NCBI RefSeq assembly: GCF_018977255.1
Contig: NW_024704762.1
Location: 9,238,001-9,302,000, forward strand
Origin: Callorhinchus milii
Taxonomy: Eukaryota
DNA length: 64,000 bases
Reading direction: 5' to 3'
The position numbers and the translations under genes were made by a program. The notes beneath the pieces are model-generated. The model had not been told where the DNA came from and searched no databases. It was given only the letters and a program-made list of their open reading frames with translations. This document shows, one piece after another, positions 546 to 33,000 of this stretch. Position 1 is the stretch's first letter. Every line of letters begins with the position of its first letter.

Positions 546-2935
<2,390 letters not shown>

Positions 2936-8963: not shown

Positions 8964-9092
8964 CCAATCAGCGGTGAGAGCCGCGGTCCGGGGGCAGTGC
9001 TCAGGGAGGAGCGCAGTTATAAGTGAGAGCTCAGAGCGACATCAAAGGCGCAGTGTCTGTCCCTCTCTCTCTCTGCGCTGCGGACCCCACAG
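8964..9092 (+). promoter_or_regulatory. Probable S100 promoter and non-coding exon 1
   Basis: CCAAT 8964, TTATAAG 9017, TCF/LEF-like ATCAAAG 9041, Inr-like CAGT ~9051, donor CAG|GTGAGA at 9092/9093. Fits the canonical 3-exon S100 layout with an untranslated first exon. Confidence 0.6.
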
Positions 9093-9704
9093 GTGAGAAG
9101 GTGCGGAGTGTGGAAGCGCCTTCGGTTATTATAGTATTTGTTGGGGGGTTTTTTTTGGTAAAAAAATAACTTATTCAAAACAATAACCTGAGACATTGTC
9201 TGATCACATCCTTTGCCTTTTGTACAAACTTGTGATTGTGCTTTGTAATGGGATNNNNNNNNNNNNNNNNNNNNNNNNNNNNNNNNNNNNNNNNNNNNNN
9301 NNNNNNNNNNNNNNNNNNNNNNNNNNNNNNNNNNNNNNNNNNNNNNNNNNNNNNNNNNNNNNNNNNNNNNNNNNNNNNNNNNNNNNNNNNNNNNNNNNNN
9401 NNNNNNNNNNNNNNNNNNNNNNNNNNNNNNNNNNNNNNNNNNNNNNNNNNNNNNNNNNNNNNNNNNNNNNNNNNNNNNNNNNNNNNNNNNNNNNNNNNNN
9501 NNNNNNNNNNTGTATGTTCTGAATTTCTCGGAACACACATTTTTTGCTGCTCCTCTATTACCCCAAACTCTCTCCGCTGTGTTTTGCTTTATTCTGCGAC
9601 TTAACTCTAAACTCTCTGAGGAACGGTCAGTCCCTGTTCTTACTGTATTGGGGCTCAGTCACAAGACTGTAAGGGGTGGTGGGGGGGAGGGGGCAAAGGC
9701 AGTT

Positions 9705-9770
9705 CAGTTAGTTGGTTAGTTAGTTAGTTGGTTAGTTAGTTAGTTATTAATTGGTTAGTTGGTTAGTTAA
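9705..9770. repeat. (GTTA/GGTTA)n microsatellite
   Basis: ttagttggttagttagttag visible directly. Confidence 0.9.
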
Positions 9771-10681
9771 ATCTTCCCCACTTCCGTCTTGTCAGTTTCA
9801 CGTTCGCCTGCAGATGCACAGTCACTACACCTGACAGTCAATCCCGCAAAGACGCTTTGAGCGACCAGACACGATAGCGAACGCCAAATGTTACTCAGCG
9901 TCTTGCGGTCTGAGCAAAAGCGGTTCAGTACGACGTTACAGGGAGCGGTGCAATGTCGCTGACCGGCCCACGCTTCGTATTGCCTCTCTGCCCGCGGTTT
10001 GATCGAACGTTTAACGCCTCAAAGCGCGTGATTTACTGCCAAGTTTAGCGACTGTGTTTGTGTCCCGTGTTTAAAAGTGATCTCGCTGAAAGATCCCTCT
10101 CTCGTCAACCACCTTCCGCCCTGGTTTTTTTCTCTGTCTCTCACTCTTCATGACCGATAATTGTTTTTGACTTTATTTTCTAAAAATCGTGTTTATTTGG
10201 GATTAATCCAGTCCCCCCCCACCCCCCACCCCGCCCTTAATTTGAAGCCCTTTTGCAACTAGGACTGATTTGGTGTTTGGTGGTAATTTGGGGTCTGGGG
10301 GCAGAAATGGGAGGGGGTTGTACCTCTAAAGCAAATAAAAAGGGTGCGGTCGGGTTATCTGCCTTGTTCTTTTGAGTCTGCAAACTGTCTGTGCTGAGAT
10401 GGGGCGTATGTGCTGTCCGTGTCAGTATCTCTGGCCAAACTGATCCTCGTTTCGAATCTCTCCACCGCCGCGCCCCTCCCTACAGAGGGTGCCTTCCCGT
10501 AAATCCACCGTCAGTCGATTCGCTTGACAGTATATTTGCGTGAAGCGCATTGAGACGTCTCGAAGACGTGATAAGGCGCCGTATCGAATAGCAAGGATTA
10601 TTGTTGTTGTTGTTGTTTCTCTGATCCCATTTTGCCCCACAGCCGTTCAGTGACCCGTGAGCAGCGATCCTCGAGCCAGCA

Positions 10682-12615
10682 ATGACGAGTACAGCGTGCA
10701 TTGTCCCTTCCCCCCTGGAGATGGCCATGGAGCATCTGATCGACGTCTTTGGCCAGTACTCCCAGAAGGACCAAATGAAACAGACTCTGAACAAGCAGCA
10801 GCTCAGGAAGCTGATGGACGAGCAACTGACCACACTCATGCAGGTAACAGTGGCCCTGAGCCAGGGTGGGGAGGGGGCTGAGATTGGAATGGGGCTTTGG
10901 GTTGGCCATTTAGCAATCGGCTGCCACGTTTCACCCACAAAACACACAGTCACTACACATTACAGTACATTGTGTGAAGCACTTGGGGACGTCTTGATGA
11001 TGTGAAAAGGCGTTATATAAAATGCAAGGATTATTACTATTATTATTGATGTGTGTGACAGTGGGGACAACCTTAGCAGCTAACGTTGTTCCCTCTCTAG
11101 AGGGGCAACTGCCAACCCACCACCCACCTCCCCCCCACCCACCCCACCTCCCTCCCTCCTCCACTCAAATCACCCAACAGAGCGTTACTGTAACATTTAC
11201 AAAGCGTCCACTCATCCAGGGCGGCGCCTCGGAGCGCTCGACAGTGGTGGAGCATGACCCTGAGCTGGGGGGGAGAGGGGGTAACCTAGAAGGGGAAGGG
11301 AAAGGTCTTTAGCAATGACCAGATGATGGGGAAAGATGGGGGCAAAAATGGAGGGATTAAAAATGATCTAAAACAATTTTGCACTGGGGAGGCAGAGGAA
11401 TACAACATGAGCGCCATTCACTCTGGGCAGCGTCTCGGGAGTGCCTCAAGTCTTGTAAGGAATGAGTGAAGGAGTCAGACGGGAGCGGCTGTAGGGAGGG
11501 GACCTTTCTGCCAAACCCTGGACTGAGTCAGCACGGCTGGTTTGCCTGTCTGCTGGTTACCAACGGAAACCAAACAAAGTAGTTCTGTTTTCTTGGCCCT
11601 TCCCTCCCAGAAGCTTCGCTATGTGTGTGTGTTTTTTTTTGTTGCCTGGAACAGCTCCACGGTTGGTTCGGAGAGTTCATTCGATGAATCATACCCTGTC
11701 CTGGGTTCCTTTCTCATCTGTTCAGTGTCGAGTTGAGCGGAGCTGAGGAGAGAGGGAGGGACAGGGGAGGGAGGCAAAGGGATGGGTGGGAGGTGGGTGT
11801 CCGGTTGGGGGTGGGGGGGGGGGGGAAGAGAGGCAGTGGAGTTAGACGAGGGTTAGCCTAGACTGTGAGGTCAGGAAAAACATTCACAGGAAGAACAGTG
11901 GAGGTTGGAGAAAGGAGTGGCTTTTTCCTGTCACTGTTCCTGACTGATGTCAGGCTGGCCCCACTGCAGGAGTCAGGCCGCGAGCAAGAGGGAGCGGGGA
12001 GGAGGAATGCAATAAACTCAGTTCTATGCCACTTAGTCACATCTCGCAGCCACATGATGCCTTTTCCCATTAAGTACATGTCAAAGTGCTCAGCGGACTC
12101 ACTCACAGAGGCCGAGCAGGGCGCTGGAAGATTTAAAGCTTCCATCCCTCATCTATTATGCCAGACTTAAGAGCTGGGAGAGATGTTCATAGATTTTAAC
12201 GATAGGGAGAGGTTTCACAAGATACAATAAGGCCACAACTGCATCGATATCCACCGCACATCCACAGCTAAGTGGTTACAGTCGATTCACTTTACAGTGT
12301 ATTCTGTGAAGCACTTCGAGACGTCTCGAAGGCGCTATAGTAAATGTAAAGTATTATTGCAACGACTGACTGACAGATATGCACCTAACCTAACCAAGGC
12401 ACTTCCTTCACTCTCTCTCTCTCTCTCCGATTATCCAACAGCACCACAACAACCAAAAGGCCATCGACAATGTGTTTAAAGACTTGGATTTCGACGGGGA
12501 CGGGCTGGTGGCCTTCGAAGAGTTCCTGTCCTTGGTCGCTGGTCTCACCAAATCCTGCAATGATCGCCTACTTATTAAAGAGCACAAACGCTTGACTAGC
12601 CAGACCAAACAATGA
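10682..12615 (+). CDS. S100-family EF-hand calcium-binding protein (111 aa), 2 coding exons
   Basis: Exons 10682-10843 and 12442-12615 (phase 0, GT-AG): MTSTACIVPSPLEMAMEHLIDVFGQYSQKDQMKQTLNKQQLRKLMDEQLTTLMQ/HHNNQKAIDNVFKDLDFDGDGLVAFEEFLSLVAGLTKSCNDRLLIKEHKRLTSQTKQ*. Shows the S100 signature LExAMxxLIxVFxxY, EF loop DFDGDGLVAFEE and an intron in the hinge. Subfamily not assignable. Confidence 0.93.
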
Positions 12616-12732
12616 GCAGAACAAGTCCAGGGAGAGAGAAAAAGTTGGAGGGGGTGGGAGGGATCGACGCCAAGTATTGGCATCCTAACTGCACCAAGCA
12701 GCTCCGTGTTAAAATACTTTTGTTTTGTAATG

Positions 12733-12738
12733 AATAAA
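12733..12738 (+). terminator. S100 polyadenylation signal AATAAA
   Basis: 118 nt after the stop, followed by a GT-rich gtgtctgtctgtctt element. Confidence 0.8.
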
Positions 12739-14604
12739 ATGGCCCCCAAGGAGCAATCCCGTGTCTGTCTGTCTTGCTTTACGCCCCCGTTCTTAAAAAC
12801 CTGTTAAACCGTCCGAACGCACAAGTGGGGGGGGCGCGGACGACAGAGAAGCTCCGGGACGGGAAGTGGGAGGAATGGGTGCGCTCGGGGAACAGGAAGC
12901 CGAGAGCTGCCAATGAGCGGCTAAAACGACGACGACAACTTGCATTTGCTTCATGCCCTTCACGTAAGGGCACAACATCGGTCAGCTTCACAACGGGGGT
13001 GGGGTTGGACGACCAGCAAGCGGGGATGGGGAGGTGACGGAAGCCAATAATAATCCTTACATTTGCTGTCGTTTCCAACCCCCTCCTCCCCACCTCCAAC
13101 TCTATACAGCACAAGCTTAGAAGAGCCTCCGAAGGCACAGCTTGTGGGTTCTATAAGAATCTAGAGCCCCCCCCACTCAGGGTTGCTAACACCCCACAGT
13201 GCTTTCTAATAATTGTCCATTCTATAAACGTAGGGCAAAGCGCAGGGAAATCCTACCGTAACGCAGTTGACTGGATCCAATAGCCAACTTCCCATCTCTG
13301 CCGATGCCACTCCCTGTGATCTGGTGCCACAGAAAGTCGGACATTTTGTAGCTTAGGAAGACGTCTGGTGAAGGCCGGATGTACCAGGCTTCCTGTGGGA
13401 GGTGGGCCCACAGCAGAGCCGTTCTGTTGGGTGGGGGGGGGCTGGAGAGGGAGACAGCCCTATAACAGGGTTCTCCTGCATCGCACAAACAATATCACGG
13501 CTGACACAAACTGTATGGGGGGGGGCGCCCTGTGGAGTAACCGGTACATCCACACCTCAAAAGAAAGTCACGAGCGGCACACAACAGGTTAAATCGCCGA
13601 CCAGAATCCTGACTTTAATGAGTCAATGAAAAAAAAATCATACATTTCAAAATTCAGCTTCACCCCCACCCCCCTCTCCTTCCCCAACCCCACTGCCCGA
13701 ACACCAGCATGTTGGAGATTGCGGTTCGCGATGAATATGCATTGCACTGTGGCAATCCCACCCGTATACCCTTACCCCCCCAACCCACCAATCGCAACAC
13801 CACACCCACACACACTCTCCCACCCATCCCACAGCCTTGCACTCACGAGCAATGGGTAGCCTTGGCCAGGATTTCTTGAGCCAGTGAATGTGGGGGCGGG
13901 GGGGGGAAGAGGGGAAGAACTATGGGGGGCGTAGAGAGAGGGTAATGGTGGGAATGTCCTGATCCCTGGGTTTGGGGGTGGTGGGGGGGGCACATGGATG
14001 AGAAGCGTGAAGGGAGGTTGAATTTACCTTTGCGAACAGTGTGGGTGGGGTTGAACCAACTTCCCAGTGTGTTCAACTGGGCCGGGTTCACCCCTCTCTC
14101 CCCCAACCTCCCCCACCACGCCCGCCCGCCCAGCAACTCTACCCCTCAACCCCACCGGCCCCAAAGCCCTGGGTTTCCATCCTCAAACAAAAGCACGATA
14201 CAGGGGGAGAAGGGTTATTGGTGTGTGTATTGGTGTGTGTACTGCTGTGTGTGTGTTGGTGCGTGTGTACGTGTGTGGAGGGGGGTTGGGATTGGGGGTT
14301 GTGGGAGGGGGTTGGGGGTTGTGGGGGGGGGGGGTAAGCAGCACACCGATCCCAGGATCATTGTGTTTCTCTCTGAGCTGTGATTTTTCATGTCTACAAG
14401 GCCAGACACGTGAGGAAACACCAGGTGAGGAAATACGAGGCAGCTCACAGTCACTTTCTGCTCCTCCTATTCTGGGGGTGTGAGGGGGGGGGGAGAGGGT
14501 GGGGGTGTGAGGGGAGTGTGTGTGAGGGGAGGATGGGGGTGTGAGGGGAAGGTGGGGGTGTGAGGGGGAGGGGGTGGTGGGGAGTTGTCGTGAAGGTTAT
14601 TTGT

Positions 14605-17401
14605 TTACCCCGATCCCAGGTTAATCTCTGTTCTCCCCCGATCCCGTGTGGGGGGGAGCTGCTGTGGTTGCCGGCGGCCGCTGATCTGTCCGTTGATGAT
14701 GGGGAGATCTGGGGGGCCGTGGGAGGCGTCCTCCGAGTCCCCACTCGCCCCGGTGGAGAGCAGCGTGGGACTCGTGTCACTGGACTCCGAGCTCGGACAT
14801 GAAGCAGTTGACAGCACCAGCGAGTTCCTGGGCAACGGCTCAAAATCCTCGTCTTCAGACATGGGAGATTCGTGTACACCTGCCCACACAAGAGAGAGAG
14901 GGAGGAGAGAGAGAGAGAGGGAGGAGGGGACGGAGAGGGTTAGAGAGAGAGACAGAGAGCCACGTCACTGACAGCACACATCAGCCCACAGGTAAGAAGT
15001 CCCATAGCGTAGCGGTTAACTCGCTCGCCTTGCAAGCCGGGGTATGGATTCCCGGGCTGGACAGGGCGAAACCTTAGGCAAGTTTCCTTACTCCACCGAC
15101 GTAGACACACACACACACCTCTGTTTACCAGCAGTAAGTAGCCGCCCAGTCCTTCTTCCCCTCCCAGCTCAGCGATCGCTCATTGACTTGGCTAAGTGAT
15201 GCACGTCCCTTATGACAGGCACTGGGCTGCACGCACAATAAAGACAAAAGGCCGCGTATACTTACTGCTGAAAGCTTCTGGGTACTGCTTGGCAAGTTTC
15301 CCCTTCAGAGTCCTGTAGGCAAAAAACACACCGAGGTTATAATCAAGCGATTTAGGGTCTGCCGTGTGGTCAGGTTCCCGAACGAACAAGCTTGTATTTC
15401 AGTAGCACCTCATATGACTATTAGCCCGAGTTTGTCTACATAACTGGACGATATCAGGGAATCAATGGTAATGAGGAGTTCGGAGAAACAGCAACGATAA
15501 TGGGATTAGCTGAGATCTGCTAAACTGTCTGGAACAGGTGTAATGCTTCTAAATTGAGCTTCAGACACTCTATTTTAACGATTTGTTTCACCATTCAGCG
15601 CTTTGGGACCTCTTCCCGACGTAAAAGGAGCTACGCAAGTGTAATTTATTGTTGTCGTTTCCTGAACATCTTTCCCCACTTGCCGTCAATAATAATAACA
15701 ATAATCCTTGCATTTGATGTAGCGCTTTTCACATCTTCTCGACGTCTCAAAGCGCTTCACAGAATATACTGTAAAGAGAATTGACTGTACACTTGTGGGT
15801 GAAACCCGGCAGTCAGTTGGGGACAGCAGCGTCCCACACACATTGAAGTAGCCAAATTATTTTTTTTTAAAAGGATTATTATCCTCGGAACAGCGATCCA
15901 CCAATCGACTAACAACCGGGTTCCTACTTACTGCTCAACAAACAGAGGCGTGTGTGAGGATTTAAGGAAACTTGCCCAATGTTTTGCCCTGACCCGCCCG
16001 GGAATCGAACCCCGGTCGCTCGCTTGCGAGGCGAGTGCTCTCACCACTGACTCTACGTACGATGGTTAGGTTCAGTGACAGATGCAGCCACACAGTCCCC
16101 CACTGACAGTCACCCAAGGCAATCGACTGACCAACAGACAGACTGACCGACAGACATGCAGGTTAAACGCTTCTGTCCTTTCATTGACAAAAGGCGTTGG
16201 AGCGGCTGCTCTCTACCCGAGTGGAGCGCCACCGCCCTCCAGGGGCAGAGAGCAGTACTGCTGCTGACCAGACAAACGGGAGAAAACCGCGGGCAAAAAA
16301 ATTAAAGGCCAAAAGGCCAACAGTTGAGCCATTATCAGCTCTCCGCTCCAGGAAGGCCTTCCGCTCCTGCTGCTTCTCACTCCCCAGAGCCCCGTGCTCC
16401 TCCCCCCCCTCCTCCCCCACTTGCTCACTCCTTGTTAAATCCGAATCACAGGAACAGGAGGAGGCCATTCAGCCTCTCAAGCCTGTTCCGCCATTCTATT
16501 TACTTCGTGGCTGATCTGTAACTGAACTCCATTTACCCAGGTCCTCTCCGCCTGTGAGGCGATTGCTCTAACCGCTAAGCTACAGGACTCTACACATACC
16601 CACCTTTGCCCCATTATCCCCTCACACCCTGAACCTAACGACAATCCACCCCCCCCTCAGTCCGGAGTCTCGCCCCACGCCGTACCTTATCCGCCGGAAT
16701 ATACTATCGAGATCCTTTTTCATCTCCACCAGCGTGCGGGTGTGGTGCTGGTAGCGTTCCGTCATCTGGTGCAGGCGCGCACTCGACAGGCCGTTAAAGT
16801 TCAGCAGCATTTCGTTGGTCTTCTCAAACCTGTCCAGCCTGAGAGGTCACGGAGGCCAAAAGGTTAGCGTGGCAATGTCGTACAATTAATTAATTATACT
16901 TCCATTTCGGCCCATCAAGCCCGTCTCGGCGGTGAGAGAGATAACTTTCTTCTTAGCCTCCGCGCCCCCACACCCCACGCCCCCCACTCCAGCTCCTTTT
17001 AAAGATTCTTATCTTCACCTCGAAGTCCTCTGCGGTCACACCTGACGGCACCTGTTTCGCCCACAACACATAACCTCAAAGCGCTTCACAGAATATACCG
17101 TGAAGTGAATTGACGGTGTGTTTTGTGGGTGTAACCCGGCAGCCGAATCGACTCACAACCGGGCTCCTCCTTACTGCTGGGTAAACGGGGGGCGTTTGGA
17201 GTAGGGAGACTTGCCGAAGGTTTCTCCCTGACCCGGGGATCGAACCCGGGTCCTCTCGCTTGTGAGGCGAGAGGCTCTAACCGCTGAGCCGCAGGACTCC
17301 ACTTACATGTGTCTCTGGGCCTGGACGATGGCGTTGACGTCCTCCCGGTTCACCATGCTCATCATCCTGCTGCAAAACACTCCGGACGCCGTTGCCTCCA
17401 T
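14605..17401 (-). CDS. KXD1: KxDL motif-containing protein 1 (BORC subunit), ~189 aa, 4 coding exons
   Basis: Exons 17401-17307, 16838-16686, 15312-15266, 14879-14605. [47 protein letters not shown]...[29 protein letters not shown] with KxDL motif and Ser/acidic tail. Confidence 0.95.
15689..16055 (-). mobile_element. Deu-core SINE, full length, long subfamily
   Basis: Tail, core, central cctacttactgctc..aacagaggcgtgtgtg segment and tRNA head (gggaatcgaacccc). Confidence 0.85.
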
Positions 17402-24500: not shown

Positions 24501-27006
24501 TCAGGATTTGGGGTCTCTCTCAGCCAGCTTGGCCAGGTTTTGCCTCAGGTCGTTGAGTTCGTACAGTTTGATGTCGAGGATCTCCAGCAGGCGGTGGGCA
24601 TCTGCCCGCACCCGCTCCCCCTCCCCCAGCCTCTCCCCCAGAGTCTCCTCAGCCTCCCGCAACTGCTGCTCCAGCTCAACGTTCCTCCTCTCCACAGCCT
24701 AAGCGAGGGAGAGAGAGAGAGAGAGAGAGAGGCAGAGTGTGTGAGAGCGAGCGAGAGAGGGAGTATGAGAAAGGGGAGTGGGGGAAGAAAGAGTGTGAGA
24801 ATGAGAGCGTCAGTGGGGGAGAGAGACCGAGTGTGAGAGGGGATAGAGTGGAAAGAGAGAGGGGGGCCACACCTGGAGCCTGAGCAAAGCCTCTTCCCGG
24901 TCGCTCTCGATCTCGTTTACATCACTTTTCTGGCTTCTCAGCAAGTGGATCTCCTGATGGGGGGGAGAGAGAGAAAGAGTGTGAGAAAGAAAGAGTGTTA
25001 CAGCTCCCCCCACCCTCCCCCACCCCAGGGGCAGTGCTGTCAGAGCAGATACCTCCTCTTTCTCCTTTAGGAGCGTCTCCAGTTCCTCCACTGATTGGCT
25101 GAGGTCCGTGTTCTGTGTGGCCACTGTGTTGGCGTCTTCCCCCTGTAACTCTAGCTCCGTGACCTGGGGGGTGGGAGACACACACAGAGTTAGCTCAAGG
25201 GTTGAACCAGCGCACCCCCCCCATCCCCCATCCCCCAGATATGCTCAGTTACCCATAAACGTCTACGTAAGATAAGACCAAGGTCCATCCATCCAGTTCG
25301 CTTTCCACCATCCACTTGCACATGTTGCGTCCCAAACTATATATTGTATTCCCCTTCTCCCCCCTCTCCCTCCCTTCCCCCACGGTCCGTCCGTCCCTCC
25401 CCCCCTCTCCCTGGCCCACTCCCTCACCCTCTCCCGCAGTTTCTCCGTCTCCTCCTTGTACGCCGAGAGCTGCTTCTTCCACTGCTCCACGTTGACGTTG
25501 GACTCGTGTAGGGCCTGCACCAGCTTGGCATTGCTCTCCTGCAGCCCAAACAGCTCCATCTCCCACTGCGGCTCGCACACCGAGCTACAGGCACAGACAC
25601 AGCGCTCAGAGAGGGCACGGTGGGCCAGCGCGGGCGAGAGAGAGAGAGAGAGCGAGATAGCGAGAGAGAGAGAGCGCGAGAGTGTGTATACAAGAGAGTG
25701 AGAGATCTCAGAGAGAGCGAGAGCGCTTATCAGACAGTCTGTGTTAAAGTGCAGTGACCGTGTGTTTTGTGGGCGAAATGCGTAGCAGTGTCCCACAGTC
25801 GTGTATAATAACCCAAAAAAATTTAGGGGCGCGGCGGGTAGTGGTGAAGAGATTATTAACCCCGGAAAGCAATCCGGGGTGATGTGGAAGGGGGCGAGAG
25901 AGAAAGAGGGAGGGGATTTTTGTTCCAGATACAATTCACCGCGACGTTGGGAACCAACGGGCACGGCTGGAACCGGGAATGGGTTGGAGAGGTCAGGAAT
26001 CCCGTCACGTGTGGGACCGAGAGAGAGACGAGCGAGTGCTGGCGTGATGGGAGTGCAGTTTGCGTGTTGGACGTCATTACCTTTGGGAGAACATGGCCTT
26101 GAGCCGTATTCCGTCCAGCACCCCCTCCCCGTCGCTGCTCTCCCCCCGGTACAGCTTCTGCCCCCCGGGCCCATTGGCGCTGGCCGGGGGCAGCGGTGGG
26201 GAGTGAAGGCCCCCACAGGACAGGTCCTGCACGGAACCAATCACAGAGGAAAACGTTACACAGTCGCGAATCCGTGGAGAGCTGAGCGACAACACGGGCG
26301 AGTTATGATGTTTTTTTTGCCCGACACACACACGGAAACCCATCACCGTTGCGTAAGAGTCTCCAAACCAAACGGAGAATTCCAGACCTCCCACCTACAC
26401 CTGGCAATCCCAGAGATAAATTGTCGGAATTGGAATGCGCTCTCTCCCTCTCTCGCTCTTCCAGGAAGGACACATCCTGCTTAACCTAATTCCGTAAAGT
26501 ATTAGGCGCAGGTTGGCAAGAGCCGAGGCTCGGGGAGGGAGCCCAGAGTTGGGGTAACTCCTGGAGTCTAACCAGCTAAAACCACACAGCTTGGCCATTG
26601 AGAGCGCTGTCTGGTAAGCTTCCCCGCTGCTTGTCCAGCTCGGGCCGCCCTACCCTCACGCAGGCTAGCGTCCCAGAGCGCTCGACAGTGGCGGAGGAAG
26701 AGGAACGACCTGAAGACGGGGGAAGCCTGGGGACAGAGGGAGAACGGCTGGAGCAACATTGCGAAGTTGAGTGCTGTGGGTTTATTGGATAATGGGGTTA
26801 ATTATCAAAGGGCTGAGAGTGACACAAGACACCGATTTGGGTTTTGGCAGGAGGTGAAATGTCAGGATGTGAGCCTGAGTGCTCCAGCCAATTTATATTA
26901 CAGGAAACAGATGTGGGTTTTTTTTTTCCCGTAAGGAACTAAAAACTGAGGGGAAGAGGGGGCAGAATTCAACTAGAGAGAGGGAGCCAGAGACAAAAAG
27001 GAACAG

Positions 27007-27039
<33 letters not shown>

Positions 27040-30000
27040 TAACGAAGAGAGAGATACACACAGACACACACACAGAACGAGAAACACACCCACACACTCA
27101 CACGTACACACAACACACGGAGATTAAGGACGAGACTGTAGCTGAATTCTTCTTGGCTTTCAGGAATCTAAAACTATATCCAAATGCTTTCAATTAAAGT
27201 TACGTGTCTCCAGCATTTCCCGGCAGGCTCTGTGCCCTTTAACCAATATTGGTAGCTCAGTGTTACTCCCCGCAGTGCACTGCCCGCAGACAATAAGTCT
27301 TGGACAAAGATTTTCGGTTCCTGCATCTGTGGTTAAAAAAGCTCGTCCTGAAACAAGCAAGGGTTGGGGGGCCGGGCGGGGGGTGGGGGGTGGGGGGGAA
27401 GGAAGGGGGACGTGTATATAATTAAACAGATCAGATACTGATTCAGCACAAAATCCATTGTTCTTCACACAGCGACACACATCCCTTCATATCGGACATC
27501 TGATCGTGAGTTGGACAAAGCCAGAGAGAGGGAGCGAGAGACCAGCACAAGCAGAACAACACACGGAGTCACACAGAGAGAAAGAGACGCTTATACAGAG
27601 ACACACGGAGGGACAGAGAGAGTGACAGCTCTACTGTAACCTAGGAGTGTGGACTGTTAGTGTAGAGGGAGCTTTACTGTGTCCCTCACCCTGACCTGGG
27701 AGTGTGGACGCACATTGTAGACTCGGAGGGAGCGTTATTGTGTCTCTAACCCTGGGAGTGCAGGATACAGAAACAAGCTGCCAAGTTATAACCAGATTGC
27801 CCGAGGGCACACGGCGCTGAGTCGGGGAAGCTGAGAACGAGTGTATAAACCTCTCGTCCCCAGGGCCAACGTTCCTCCTCCTCCTCCTCACCTCGAATGT
27901 GCCAGAGAAAGAAAATGCGAATTGAAAATGAGAGGACGGAAATTTTACACGGATTGGAAGGAAATAATAATAATAATAATCCTTGCACTTGACACAGTCG
28001 CCTTATCGCGTCTTCGGGACGTCTCAAAGCGCTTCACGGGATACACCGCCAAGTGAATTGACCGTATGTTTTGTGGGCGAAACGCGGCAGCCAATTGTGC
28101 ACAGCGACGTCTCCACAAACAGTCGTGGATTGAGTGATCAAGTTACTGTGCTATTATTTTATTTATTTGAAGGGATTATTACCCTAAATAAAACTCCCGC
28201 CAGCTTGCAGATCTGACGACCAGTTACCGTCATTGAAACACATCTCGTTAATCCCCCCTGAGCAAAAGCCCCGGCTCCTCTTCTCCCCTTCTCCCCCTTC
28301 CCCCCTTTCCCCTCCCTCTCTCCTCTCCCGCCCCCATCACCTCCCCAGAATCAGCCCAGTAGGTTCATGGCCAGGCTGGGTCTCCAGGACCCAGGGGAAG
28401 CCACGAGACGGCCTCATTCCCTCTCCCAGGCTGAAGCTGGTGGTATTTTTGGAACCTTCTGTCCTACATAACTCACCCCCAGAAGATGGATTCATTCCGT
28501 GTTGGAGCGTTAGCGCTAACTGGTTCAACTGCAGAGACGTGTGCAGTCAATGGCCAGGAAACTGACTGCACTTTACAACGAAATAATAATCATCATCATC
28601 ACCATAACAATCCTTGCATGTGATACAGCCCCTCATCACATCAGGTTATGTTATCAAGTGGAGTGACTGTGTATTTTGTGGGCGAAACGCGGCAGCCAAT
28701 TCCCATCGGCTTCCTTCCTACTTACTGCTGGGTAAACTGGTAGGTGTGTGTGTGTGTGTGGAGCGAGGAAACTCGCCCAAGGTTTCGCCCTGACCTGCCC
28801 GAGATTCCTCTCGCTAACCACTACACTACGGGAATCCGTGGCTAATCCCGTGAAGTGCCGGCGAGTGGGAACGCCGGGGTTTCCCCAATCGGCAGACGGA
28901 CACGTGGCACGAGAGAGGGAAACACGAGGAGAAGCGAGTGGAAGGCGGAGAGGATAGCAAAGGGGGCGAGGTTAAATTTAGAAGCGAAAGAGTTGAGCCG
29001 AGAGGAAAAACAGGTGAGCGAGGACCTGTGGATTAACCTTGTCACGCACAGACACCCCCACCCCCCACACACACACAGATACATGCTCAGTTAACCCTGC
29101 AGCAACTGCCTGAACAACCCCCCCACCCTCTCCATCCCGGCTACAACACATTGTCACCGTTTGTCCTGTTAAGCATCCAAGACACTAACCCTGCACGAAG
29201 GGCAATGTATAAATGCAAGGTGATGTTGTTGTTGTTTGCACTTTAACATTACCCTGAGCCTGGCTTCCCCTCACACCCCACCCCCTCCTCCACCCCACCC
29301 CCCATCCCGTTCCCCCCACTCCACCCCCCACTCACCTGTGGGGCAGCGATGTCCAGGGCGGGGTTCGTGAGCTCTATTTTGTCCTGGGATTTCTCTCTGG
29401 CCAATCGAGCCGCTTCCTTCACCTCCTGGAATTTTTCGGCAAACTAAGAGAAAAATATAACGGGGAATGGGACGTCAGCAAAGCCCGGATCGGGGGGAGG
29501 GGCAGGGCCGGGGGGAGGGCAGAGCATCGAGGGGCACAAGACCCCACTCACGAGCGCTGACATACCTGCGCTCACTTTACCTGTGCTCAGGTCCTGGTTG
29601 CTGGCCTGTACCTGTACTCGTGTACCTGCGCTGGCTCAGGGACCTGTGATGTACGTACCTGCGCTAGCTGTTGCTCGGAGCTGAAGCCCAGGCCGTACAC
29701 GGTGTTGGCCCGGCTGTCTGCCCACTGGCCGAACTTCTGGGAGGTTTTCGTGAAGGACATGTTGGGGGTGATGGTGCTGTTGATGATCGCCTGAAAGAGA
29801 GACAGTCACAGCGAGGAGCCGGTGAGGAGCCAAGACATCCAGAGCCGGGGAGTGGGTGGGGGGGGAAGAAGGGTGGGGCGGGGAGGGGATGGAACGAAGG
29901 TGGTCAGTGGGCGGTTGGGGTGGTGGAGGAGAGGAGTGGGGGGGGGGCGGGGCAGTGGAGACCCACCTTGGTGCCGCCCACGCTGATGATACGGTACACA

Positions 30001-33000
30001 TTGCGGTTGCTGTCGTAGAAGTAGGAGACGGTGACGGCATGTTTGCTCGCCGGAATCCAGTTGCGCTTCGTGGCCGGGTCAATCTGGAACACGTGAGCTC
30101 GAGCACTGAAGATAGGCTGCTCCCTGCAGAGAGAGAGAGAGAGAGAGAGATAGAGAGTGAGGGGGAGAGGGAGACGGTCACAGAGAGAGGGAGAGATACA
30201 CACAGAGACACAGAAAGAGAGAGACACAGAGACTCAGTCACACAGAGAGAGAGGGAGAGAGACACAGAGAGAGAGAGAGAGACAACAGCAACAACAGCGC
30301 ACTGGATTTATTCAGCGCTTTTCACGTCGGGAGGACGTCCCAGGAAACAGAGACACATGACACGTCGCAGGTTTTAAACCCCGTAGAGCGACACAGTTTA
30401 GCCAAAGGTCCCGCAAAAGTCTCGCCGGGTTTCGTAAAGCCCACGTGACCAGACGAGACTTGATTTTTAACGATCAGCAAACAAATATGTGAATGGAAAA
30501 GTGGAGGAAATAATATTTGTAAATCCTGCAAAGCTCTAATTTGTTAGATCGCTGCCCAAACGCCCCCCCCCACGGTTCCTCCGGCTCAGTGGCAGGGTCC
30601 CTCCCAGGCTCAGTGTGTCATCTGCTCCATATAAACGTGCCCAATCTATCTCTTTCGCTCTTGCTCCCTTTTACTCTCCCTCTCCCGCTTGCTCTCCCCT
30701 CTCTTTCTCTCTCCTCTTCATCTCCAACCAAGCGTGTTCTTGCCAAACCAAAGCTAAGGGCAGAGGGCGTGGTGTGCCTTTCAGCTCCCGTTGTGCCTGC
30801 GAACCAAAGCCCTACGGTAGGGTGATCCCAGCTGGACAAGCAGCGGGAAGCTAACCGGATAGAGCTCATGTGTGTCAGACACCCGGCTGACCTAAAAAGC
30901 ACAGGCGGGGAAAACGATCCAATCGAGGTTCCACAATCAATCCTCCGCTAGAAATCAGGGAGATTCACACCAAATTGGGCTCAATCTCAGAGTGGCTTAA
31001 ATCAGACTTTTCTCTCGCTTTTGGGGCAGTGTCCCCCGCAGCAGGACTCCGAAATAGCCTTGTGTTTAGTAGGTCGATTGAGTGCTGAGCTGTGGGGACG
31101 GAGCTGGAAAGTGGGCTTGAGGACAAGGATGACCCAAACGATGGGGACATGAGGGGTTGAAGCATTTCACTTCATCCCAGGCTGTAAATGTCTCTCTCTC
31201 TCTCTCCTCTATATATACAGTGTATAACACACACACACAGCTCACAGCAATACTCGGGGTCACTGCACATCTAGGTTAGTTTGCGAGAGAAATGTGTCGA
31301 GAGAGAGGAAAGGAGGAGAGGAAGGGAGGGAGGGAGCGGTCGTTGCAGGCATTTTTTTCTCCCTCTTTGACTGGTCACAGCGATGCTGAAAGTGATTGTG
31401 TGCAGAGAGGAGGCACCTGATCCAGCAGTTGCCTGTAACTCTCAGGAGGGGAGGGGTGGGGGGGTGGAGGGGGATTAAGATTTAATCTCTTTTATCCGCG
31501 AGCGATTCGCCAACACAGAACTCTTCATTTCCCGAATTCCGACCATTGTCCGTGATCTGGGAGGACTGAGATCCCTGGCATGCCTGACCGACCGCGTTTC
31601 CGGATGGATTTCAGGCAATTTGTCTTGAATAATAATAATAATAATCCTTGCTTTCGACACAGCGCCTTATCACGCCTTCGTGGAGTGACTGTGTATTTTG
31701 TGGGCAGCCAATTGCGCACAGCGACGTCCCACAAACCGTCCATGGATTGAGTAACCACTTTTGTTAAAAAAAAAAGGGCTTATTACCCCCGGAAAGTCAC
31801 TACTTACTTACTGCTGGTAAACAGAGGCATGTGTGTGTGTGCGGAGTAAGGAAACTTTCCCAAGGTTTCTCCCTGCCCCGTCTCTGCTTCTTCAGGTGGA
31901 CATTAAAGATCCCGGGGGCTACCGGGAAAAAAAATCAAGGGGGAGTTTCTCCCTCCAGGTGTCTTGGCTGACAATCTTTCGGAAGAATTGTGTGTCGCTC
32001 AGTTCACGGCTGTTTGTGGGACGTGGCTGAGTGTAACGCTCGCCTACAAAATACACGCACTGGCTGCGTTTCACAGTAAATCCTGTGAAGCGGTTTGAGA
32101 CGTCCTCCCGACCTGAAAGGCGTTGGATCAAACCCAAGGAATGCGCTGAAACCCTAACCTTCCACACACCGGGGTGTTCAGGGGGGGGAAAAAAAATATT
32201 GTGAATGATCGCACACCCAAGCAAACAATCACAACATCTAAAAGCCTCCGTCCGGCGTGTGCAGCTTTCATCTTATTCAACAACTCAACACTTAGCGTCT
32301 ACACAGCAACTGAGCCCTGAAGCGCGAGACTTTCTCACTCTAGCCCTCTCTCTCCATCCCTTCCTCTCTCCCAATCCACATCATCTTCCTCTCTTCCTCC
32401 CCGTCTCGCTCTCCCTTCCTCCTGCTCGGCACTGGGTGACATGATCATCCATCAGTGAATCCCCCGGTCACTTAAGCCCGTGTGATTTTGTGCACCCCCT
32501 TTCCTCCCAAACACGAGTAATTACCTTCCCAGACATTTGAGAACAAGACGCAGGTTCGAATGAGAAAAGAGCTTCGAGTCCTTCAACACCTCTTCCTTCA
32601 GTCCTTGCCTCCCCCACCACCCACCCAACAACCTCCCCACAGTGGGCACAGGCTTCACCACCCTTCACCCCCACACCCCAGTGCTCTTCCCCTCCCCACC
32701 CACTGAGGATCCTATATTCAGACACTCCCTAGACCTCAAACCAACTAACAGCACAACACTCCCCCATAGCCACACATCCACGTAACCAACCACTCAGTCT
32801 CCTAACAGCCCCTTTCCTTCTGTCCTCCAAACCCTGACCACCCTCCTCAACACATACACAGGGCACCAAAACCCTCACACCCACTCCTCTTCCCCCCCAC
32901 CCCACCCCACACACCATCCCCGAAGCACCCAGTCTTTCTCTGACTCTCTCCTCTCTTTCCTTCCTTCACTCCTGCTCGACACGCAGTGACACGGTTGTTA

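What the first reader, a model, noticed from the sequence alone, without database searches (positions are those of the whole stretch)
9017..12738. Orphan S100 gene between UBA52 and KXD1: candidate lost ohnologue of the S100 family
Seen: an intact 3-exon S100 gene with TATA box, splice sites and poly(A) signal lies between KXD1 and UBA52 on the opposite strand. Known: in human, KXD1 and UBA52 are adjacent at 19p13.11 with no S100 gene; S100A genes cluster at 1q21 and S100Z lies at 5q13 near HOMER1; 1q21/5q13-14/15q/19p13 form a paralogon (HOMER, MEF2, CRTC families). Inference: this gene may be the HOMER3-linked whole-genome-duplication copy lost in mammals, i.e. an unnamed S100 subfamily.
Basis: partly seen in the sequence, partly recalled or inferred. 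Interest (0 to 1): 0.7.

Follow-up and report, generated by a model that had tools for sequence, protein, structure and literature searches.

The report
Cartilaginous-fish S100 left by genome doubling
An intact, spliced elephant shark S100 gene between UBA52 and KXD1 is not an orphan but one of six S100 genes in one block, its likely shark and ray counterparts share a chromosome with KXD1, and it is likely a leftover of early vertebrate genome doubling that bony vertebrates probably lost.

Summary
The gene is real: three exons, a 111-aa S100 (RefSeq label 'S100-A1', Callorhinchus milii), exon 2-3 junction joined in 7 of 7 RNA-like runs laid. It is not an orphan: five more S100 genes lie 45-69 kb away, beyond UBA52 and four PAR-family receptor genes. 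The order PAR(+), S100(+), HOMER3(-) mirrors PAR(+), S100Z(+), CRHBP, HOMER(-) on another scaffold, matching a published paralogon (human 19p13 versus 5q). Its likely ray and shark orthologues share KXD1's contig (consecutive accessions in manta ray), so it is no recent transposition. Trees do not resolve its sister: a weak lean to S100A10/A11, the label a 2016 paper gave these shark proteins without synteny. Relocation of the true A10/A11 orthologue, or a later tandem duplicate, remain open; 1q21 markers were not found in this assembly and absence from gar, coelacanth or amphibians is untested. The protein is predicted to be a dimeric calcium sensor with one intact site, the pseudo-EF-hand glutamate being glutamine. 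The scan had already reported the neighbouring five-gene cluster (e1-9915055); this adds a sixth gene and KXD1 linkage in five elasmobranchs.

The parts
9017..9023 (+). TATA box, about 30-35 bases before the 5' end seen in transcript contigs; a CCAAT lies at 8964
   Evidence: sequence; function inferred
9054..9092 (+). exon 1, non-coding; 5' end approximate
   Evidence: GT donor at 9093; spliced contigs of X4 and X7 carry 39-40 bases before exon 2 and a repeat-length variant at 9062 at the same depth (tables 4 and 8)
10643..10843 (+). exon 2; coding from ATG 10682, residues 1-54, pseudo-EF-hand
10760..10801 (+). 14-residue pseudo-EF-hand loop S27-Q40; last ligand is Gln instead of Glu
   Evidence: alignment: Gln in 4 of 4 members of this clade, 2 of 126 other rows
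12442..12755 (+). exon 3; residues 55-111, stop 12613-12615, 3' UTR to about 12750-12755
12487..12522 (+). canonical EF-hand loop D70-E81 with Asp at 1, 3, 5, Gly at 6, Glu at 12
12733..12738 (+). poly(A) signal AATAAA
   Evidence: transcript contigs end at 12740-12755
546..2920 (-). UBA52 coding exons (left neighbour)
14605..17401 (-). KXD1 coding exons (right neighbour)
24501..30119 (-). HOMER3 exons read here (gene extends further upstream)

Best explanation
This is an intact, spliced S100 gene, one of six S100 genes around a PAR receptor array, and it likely descends from the 19p13-type copy of an ancestral PAR-S100 block made by vertebrate genome doubling, kept in cartilaginous fishes and probably lost in bony vertebrates. 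Its most likely counterpart is the S100A10/A11 lineage at 1q21, with neighbour gene B the counterpart of S100A1/S100Z, so that the shark cluster would be a twin of the 1q21 cluster rather than its orthologue (inferred; trees are weak). The protein is predicted to work as a cytosolic S100 dimer in which Ca2+ binding at the intact C-terminal EF-hand opens a hydrophobic cleft for a target, while the N-terminal site binds Ca2+ weakly or not at all and no S100B-type His zinc site is present. Shown: gene structure, splicing, fold model, neighbours, linkage in elasmobranchs. Inferred: origin by genome doubling, loss in bony vertebrates, dimer, calcium behaviour.
For: Same order and strands in two blocks of one genome: C21 PAR x4(+), UBA52(-), S100(+), KXD1(-), HOMER3(-); C1 PAR x3(+), two hydroxylase-like genes, S100Z(+), CRHBP, and a HOMER(-) 1.05 Mb on. 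PMC8040251 supplement puts HOMER1/SHC3, HOMER3/SHC2, SHC1 and HOMER2/SHC4 in four quarters of paralogon 7; PMC4771116 puts PAR1-3 on human 5 and PAR4 on 19. The gene groups with manta and catshark proteins in 4 of 4 trees (SH 87; 86/76; 96/93; 97/92) and shares rare residues Q40 and F71. In 5 of 5 elasmobranch species with both contig lengths listed, the S100 proteins looked up share KXD1's contig; in Mobula birostris KXD1 is XP_072100105/107 and the S100 XP_072100108/109. No relative above 51% identity among 1.84 billion representatives, and no bony-vertebrate row joined the clade. AlphaFold model pLDDT 86, best fold hits S100A10 and S100Z.
Against: The backbone of every tree is unresolved; the grouping with A10/A11 reached 79/88 in 1 of 4 trees only, and joining the clade to Z (p 0.195), A1 (0.168), P (0.145) or gene B (0.107) is not rejected. 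An ohnologue model predicts gene B with Z; the trees lean to A1 with Z (92/86, 70/79). All non-B, non-Z chondrichthyan S100s that could be placed were on the KXD1 chromosome and none on a 1q21-like one, which one relocation would also explain; five 1q21 markers (SHC1, CHTOP, SNAPIN, INTS3, ILF2) were not found in this assembly, so the test could not be made. Only 150 of 804 hits were seen and 23 named; a frog, bowfin, tarpon or arapaima S100 joining the clade is not rejected (p 0.07-0.34), and a swordfish S100 groups loosely with another gene of the shark cluster (99/73, 95/48). In catshark the accessions of KXD1 and the S100 are 1,610 apart.
Confidence: 0.5

Rival explanations
1. The gene is the true orthologue of S100A10/A11 (and gene B of S100A1); there is one ancestral cluster, which moved between the 19p13-type and 1q21-type chromosomes in one lineage, most likely the bony-vertebrate stem.
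For: PMC5072561 labels the elasmobranch relatives 'A10/A11'; 79/88 support; clade with A10 alone or A11 alone not rejected (p 0.42, 0.25); one move replaces two reciprocal losses; an A11-like query finds no further S100 locus in the assembly.
Against: The cluster would have had to land on the paralogous chromosome by chance (paralogon rows); B with A1 is not recovered in any of 4 trees; the EF-hand damage differs from S100A10 (here the C-terminal loop is intact); the assembly seems to lack the 1q21-type region, so says little.
Confidence: 0.2
2. Only one S100 came through genome doubling at this place (twin of S100Z); this gene is a later tandem duplicate or the fast-evolving positional twin of S100Z within the chondrichthyan stem, and its A10/A11 likeness is noise.
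For: It lies downstream of the PAR array on the same strand, as S100Z does on C1; clade with Z or with gene B not rejected; long end branch 0.85-0.98; the cluster shows much local duplication (genes C and D, two-domain sawfish protein).
Against: One clade of all 11 KXD1-chromosome S100 rows tested gives p 0.029 (one of 15 tests run, not significant after correction); nearest rows outside the clade are teleost A10a proteins.
Confidence: 0.2
3. A recent, chimaera-specific transposed or retro-copied S100.
For: Low identity (45-48% over the core) to the elasmobranch proteins, hardly above 44% to zebrafish s100a10a.
Against: Two introns at the family positions; starred clade with elasmobranch proteins in 2 of 4 trees; manta ray relative has accessions consecutive with KXD1; no close parent in the genome (at most 45% to other C. 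milii S100s).
Confidence: 0.02

Closest known systems
Elasmobranch 'S100A10/A11' proteins of Wheeler et al. 2016 (PMC5072561, S1 spreadsheet rows)
   Same: The catshark row reads the same as the last 100 residues of P0015 (compared by eye), which groups with this gene; same Phe in the second EF loop; Gln at the last pseudo-EF ligand in catshark, white shark, nurse shark and stingray rows.
   Different: The paper had no C. milii member of this group and no synteny for sharks; the skate row keeps Glu; the elasmobranch proteins have a 2-residue shorter first loop, the chimaera protein does not.
S100Z with F2R/F2RL1/F2RL2 and CRHBP (human 5q13; G000 C1)
   Same: Same PAR(+), S100(+), HOMER(-) layout; same intron position between EF-hands.
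   Different: C. milii already has a true S100Z on C1 (94/95 to 100/98 in trees); this protein is 41% identical to a Z-type protein over the core and lacks the pseudo-EF Glu.
S100A10 / S100A11 / teleost s100a10a (1q21 cluster)
   Same: Weak tree affinity; best phmmer single-domain hit is a wrasse S100-A10a (47%); best fold hit is S100A10.
   Different: Different chromosome quarter (19p13-type); canonical EF-hand intact unlike S100A10; no strong clade support.
S100A1 (the RefSeq label of this protein)
   Same: 43% core identity; S100 fold.
   Different: Never grouped with A1-like rows in 4 trees (not formally rejected, p 0.168); gene B of the same cluster is far closer to A1/Z.
One-site S100 proteins such as S100A7 and S100A16 (recalled, no call)
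   Same: Loss of the terminal Glu of the pseudo-EF-hand with a working C-terminal site.
   Different: No sign of kinship; would be convergent.

Membership tests
S100 family | N-terminal 14-residue pseudo-EF-hand (Pfam S_100) | tested here: met
   PF01023 E 1.7e-12, 47.2 bits over cut-off 22; last ligand Gln
S100 family | C-terminal canonical EF-hand | tested here: met
   PF00036 26.3 bits over cut-off 25.4; Asp 1, 3, 5, Gly 6, Glu 12
S100 family | Four-helix S100 fold | tested here: met
   model pLDDT 86; Foldseek hits S100A10, S100Z, S100A1, S100B, target TM 0.84-0.89
S100 family | Non-coding exon 1 and a phase-0 intron between the two EF-hands | tested here: met
   family pattern per PMC2266712 passages
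S100 family | Dimer formation and Ca2+-dependent target binding | not testable with these tools
   hydrophobic residues of helices I and IV are conserved; no binding assay or complex prediction was run
S100A10/A11 orthology group | Supported clade with A10 and A11 | tested here: inconclusive
   79/88; not at 80 or more
S100A10/A11 orthology group | Position in the 1q21-type cluster (CHTOP, ILF2, THEM4, SHC1 chromosome) | tested here: not met
   neighbours are SHC2-, TPGS1-, CDC34-, SIN3-, PAR-, UBA52-, KXD1-, HOMER3-type genes
S100Z | Clade with Z and position beside CRHBP | tested here: not met
   another gene on C1 fulfils both; clade of this gene with Z not recovered, not rejected (p 0.195)
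S100A1 | Clade with A1 | tested here: inconclusive
   not recovered in 4 trees; AU p 0.168
2R ohnologue | Lies in a paralogous block with other duplicated families in matching order | tested here: met
   PAR, HOMER and SHC pairs on C21 and C1; paralogon 7 rows
2R ohnologue | Gene tree dates the split to the genome doublings | tested here: inconclusive
   backbone unresolved with about 100 columns
2R ohnologue lost in bony vertebrates | Absent at the matching interval in bichir, gar, coelacanth, amphibians, birds | not testable with these tools
   no vertebrate genomes other than G000; only indirect hints (fused KXD1-UBA52 gene models in coelacanth and mammals; 3 of 3 bowfin/arapaima S100s on other contigs than KXD1)

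The most novel reading that the evidence does not exclude
A two-type S100 cluster (A1/Z-type plus A10/A11-type) already lay beside a PAR gene before the vertebrate genome doublings; cartilaginous fishes kept and expanded the 19p13-type copy while bony vertebrates kept the 1q21 copy that became the epidermal differentiation complex. Most 'S100A1' and 'S100A10/A11' genes named in sharks would then be ohnologues of a subfamily set that bony vertebrates lack, this gene being a one-calcium-site member.
Probability: 0.35. Interest if true: 0.62.

Novelty: new member of a known kind. Interest (0 to 1): 0.42.

Why it matters
It would correct the orthology of shark S100 genes (automatic labels call one clade S100-A1, S100-B-like and A10/A11), push a linked S100 cluster back before the genome doublings, and give a case of reciprocal retention of a whole gene cluster between cartilaginous and bony fishes, with an independent twin of the locus that became the mammalian epidermal differentiation complex. 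It is a gene-family history result, not a new mechanism; lost ohnologues in chondrichthyans are a familiar pattern.

Tried and rejected
Word-seeded protein searches with exon 2 and with the whole protein returned only the protein itself (1 of 1 and 1 of 3 candidates). No listed run is on record as RNA (no RNA holder listed); tissue and level of expression could not be read from contigs. Search for the 1q21-type region in G000: the candidate SH2 hits were SHC4-like beside MYO1E-like exons (C26) and a FES-like kinase (C75); the candidate ILF2 scaffold carries a GOLPH3-like exon and so is probably ZFR (C79); names recalled from the translations. No S100 match in 200 kb of C26, 110 kb of C75 or 200 kb of C79. 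CHTOP (one hit, probably ALYREF, not checked), SNAPIN and INTS3 family searches gave nothing usable; these blanks do not show absence. The Atlas search with the manta protein gave generic S100 clusters only. Wheeler's tree files could not be read and the catshark paper's supplement, whose S100 tree and synteny figure may bear on the claim, is too large to open. PDB searches do not tell PAR2 from PAR4 for the neighbouring receptors (220 vs 216 and 264 vs 251 bits); PAR4 identity rests on recalled human synteny (SIN3B, CPAMD8) and an earlier scan note. No complex prediction was run, as an S100 homodimer would pass by likeness to solved structures. Rejected: orphan status, retrocopy, recent transposition, identity with any of the five C. 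milii genes of Kraemer 2008 (these match genes A, D, C6, C27 and C1).
Full report
Observation. The window is G000:C21:9238001-9302000. The joined frame equals database protein P0003, labelled 'protein S100-A1 [Callorhinchus milii]'. Exon 2 is Pfam S_100, exon 3 an EF-hand. All 7 RNA-like runs laid (of 10 listed; 3 studies) hold a contig joining exon 2 to exon 3, two also carry exon 1, and the 1 DNA-like run laid (of 4 listed) is unspliced. The runs were found through this gene and are contigs, so they show splicing, not tissue or level. UBA52, KXD1 and HOMER3 flank it on the minus strand.

It is not an orphan. A Pfam search of the genome gave 7 matches of 17 candidates, 4 on C21; local searches added two more. 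The order on C21 is CPAMD8-like, SAC3-family, IQ-motif, JUN-family, SH2 (SHC2-like), TPGS1, ubiquitin-conjugating (CDC34-like), SIN3, then S100 genes C(-), D(+), F(-), B(-), A(-), four PAR-family receptors (+), UBA52(-), this gene (E, +), KXD1(-), HOMER3(-). Domain calls are; the paralogue-level names are recalled. E is 45 kb from A and 69 kb from C and at most 40% identical to the other five. Other S100 genes are on C1 (S100Z), C6 (S100B) and C27 (S100B-like).

The block has a mirror. On C1 three PAR genes (+) precede S100Z (+) by 128 kb, CRHBP follows, and a HOMER gene (-) lies 1.05 Mb further; an SHC paralogue is on C1 too. On C21 the PAR array (+) precedes E (+), and HOMER3 (-) follows. 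Lamb 2021 (PMC8040251; passages and supplement rows seen) lists HOMER1/SHC3, HOMER3/SHC2, SHC1 and HOMER2/SHC4 as the four quarters of paralogon 7, on chicken Z, 28, 25, 10 and human 5 or 9, 19, 1, 15; S100Z, S100A1 and F2RL3 are not in that table. PMC4771116 (passages) places PAR1-3 on human 5 and PAR4 on 19. An S100 next to a PAR gene before the split of these two quarters is the simple reading (inference).

It is old. Among 1.84 billion representatives 804 matched; the best 150 were listed, none above 51% identity. I named 23 of the 150. Three elasmobranch proteins (two manta rays, catshark) group with E in all four trees: SH 87 (130 rows), 86/76 (70 rows, mixture model), 96/93 (40 rows), 97/92 (48 rows). 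They share Gln40 (2 of 126 other rows) and Phe71 (4 of 125). A KXD1 search and look-up gave contig lengths: in Mobula birostris, Scyliorhinus canicula, Pristis pectinata, Chiloscyllium punctatum and Rhinoraja longicauda, 5 of 5 species with both listed, the six S100 proteins share KXD1's contig; only the first two species concern E's own clade. Mobula hypostoma, Heterodontus and Hemiscyllium had no usable KXD1 contig and are not counted. Accessions are consecutive in Mobula birostris and 2-3, 15 and 74 apart in sawfish, bamboo shark and skate, but 1,227 and 1,610 apart in catshark; that accession order tracks gene order is my assumption.

What it is sister to is unresolved. Rows: 13 proteins without a long S100 match and 43 near-duplicates were dropped for the 130-row set; the 70-row set was hand-picked without gene F; 30 long or redundant rows were dropped for the 40-row set and 8 put back for the 48-row set. 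Subfamily labels on unnamed rows are recalled from their sequence. E's clade joined A10, A11 and teleost A10a at 79/88 in one tree only. Of 15 AU tests run, two fell under 0.05 (E clade with S100B 0.046; all KXD1-chromosome rows as one clade 0.029), neither safe after correction; Z, A1, P, B, A10, A11 and four unplaced bony-vertebrate proteins were not rejected. Gene B forms its own supported clade with shark and sawfish proteins (97/94 to 98/95) outside a loose A1+Z group.

What is in print. Wheeler 2016 (PMC5072561; passages, section 7, spreadsheet rows; trees not readable) labels E's elasmobranch relatives 'A10/A11', labels B-type skate and catshark rows 'Z', and lists C. milii genes C and D as unassigned. 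Kraemer 2008 (PMC2266712; passages, section 11, supplement rows) had five C. milii genes, none of them E. PMC12047837 and PMC13044992 (passages) treat the bony-vertebrate 1q21-type cluster only; PMC11979771 (passages; supplement unreadable) confirms s100z synteny in catshark. Nine searches found no description of S100 genes beside KXD1, UBA52 or F2RL3; the library lacks most subscription papers. The scan's own note e1-9915055, read after my mapping, reports the five-gene cluster and PAR array on the adjoining DNA with the same reading; it is not independent support.

How it probably works. The model has four helices with pLDDT 86 and matches S100A10, S100Z, S100A1 and S100B. Helix I and IV hydrophobic positions are conserved, so a standard S100 dimer is expected (inference from family knowledge). 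The C-terminal loop keeps all side-chain ligands (position 9 is Ala); the pseudo-EF-hand ends in Gln; the three His positions of the S100B zinc site are Gly, Gln and Asn. I therefore predict one Ca2+ per chain, a calcium-opened target cleft, and no S100B-type zinc site. The target is unknown; an annexin partner would fit an A10/A11 kinship. None of this was measured.

Limits. Whether chondrichthyans also keep an S100 cluster at the 1q21-type place could not be tested, since five markers of that region were not found in G000. Loss in bony vertebrates rests on the absence of a member among the hits seen, on fused KXD1-UBA52 gene models in coelacanth and several mammals, and on recalled human annotation.

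Verdict. Real gene, old chondrichthyan S100 lineage in a block that very likely arose by genome doubling (about 0.75 for the block); that this gene's lineage is itself an ohnologue lost in bony vertebrates about 0.5, relocation 0.2, later tandem duplicate 0.2, other 0.1. A new member of a known family with a useful correction to S100 history; interest 0.42.

Noticed in passing
G000:C27:906981-909145 (L022): S100B-like gene (Kraemer's Cm_S100B2; 59% to S100B of C6) among C1q-domain, three CCCH zinc-finger, band-3 and GALNT-type genes, which recall human 12q13; may be a second lost ohnologue, of S100B. It also has Gln at the last pseudo-EF ligand.
   Followed up: partly
window 1313-1380 (-), UBA52 exon 4: The start of eL40 just after the ubiquitin Gly-Gly begins Gly-Met and differs at several residues from the usually near-invariant vertebrate sequence (recalled); only one L40e locus in the assembly.
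   Followed up: partly
G000:C21:9225152-9226400: One of the four PAR genes is split in its 7TM exon; an earlier scan note reads this as a SINE-derived intron.
   Followed up: no
G000:C21:9186686-9187457 (L011): Gene F is a highly divergent S100 (19-35% to the others) with a lengthened first loop and an Asn at the first position of the second loop; similar nurse shark and catshark rows are unassigned in PMC5072561.
   Followed up: partly
G000:C1:117541000-117571000 (L058, L061): Two fatty-acid-hydroxylase-family (CH25H-like) single-exon genes sit between the PAR genes and S100Z; one looks frame-broken.
   Followed up: no
P0017 (Pristis pectinata): A 204-aa protein with two B-type S100 units, either a tandem pair fused by annotation or a real double S100.
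   Followed up: no
G000:C27:857000-881000 (L033-L035): Three single-exon CCCH zinc-finger ORFs of the ZC3H10 type in tandem, beside the S100B-like gene.
   Followed up: no
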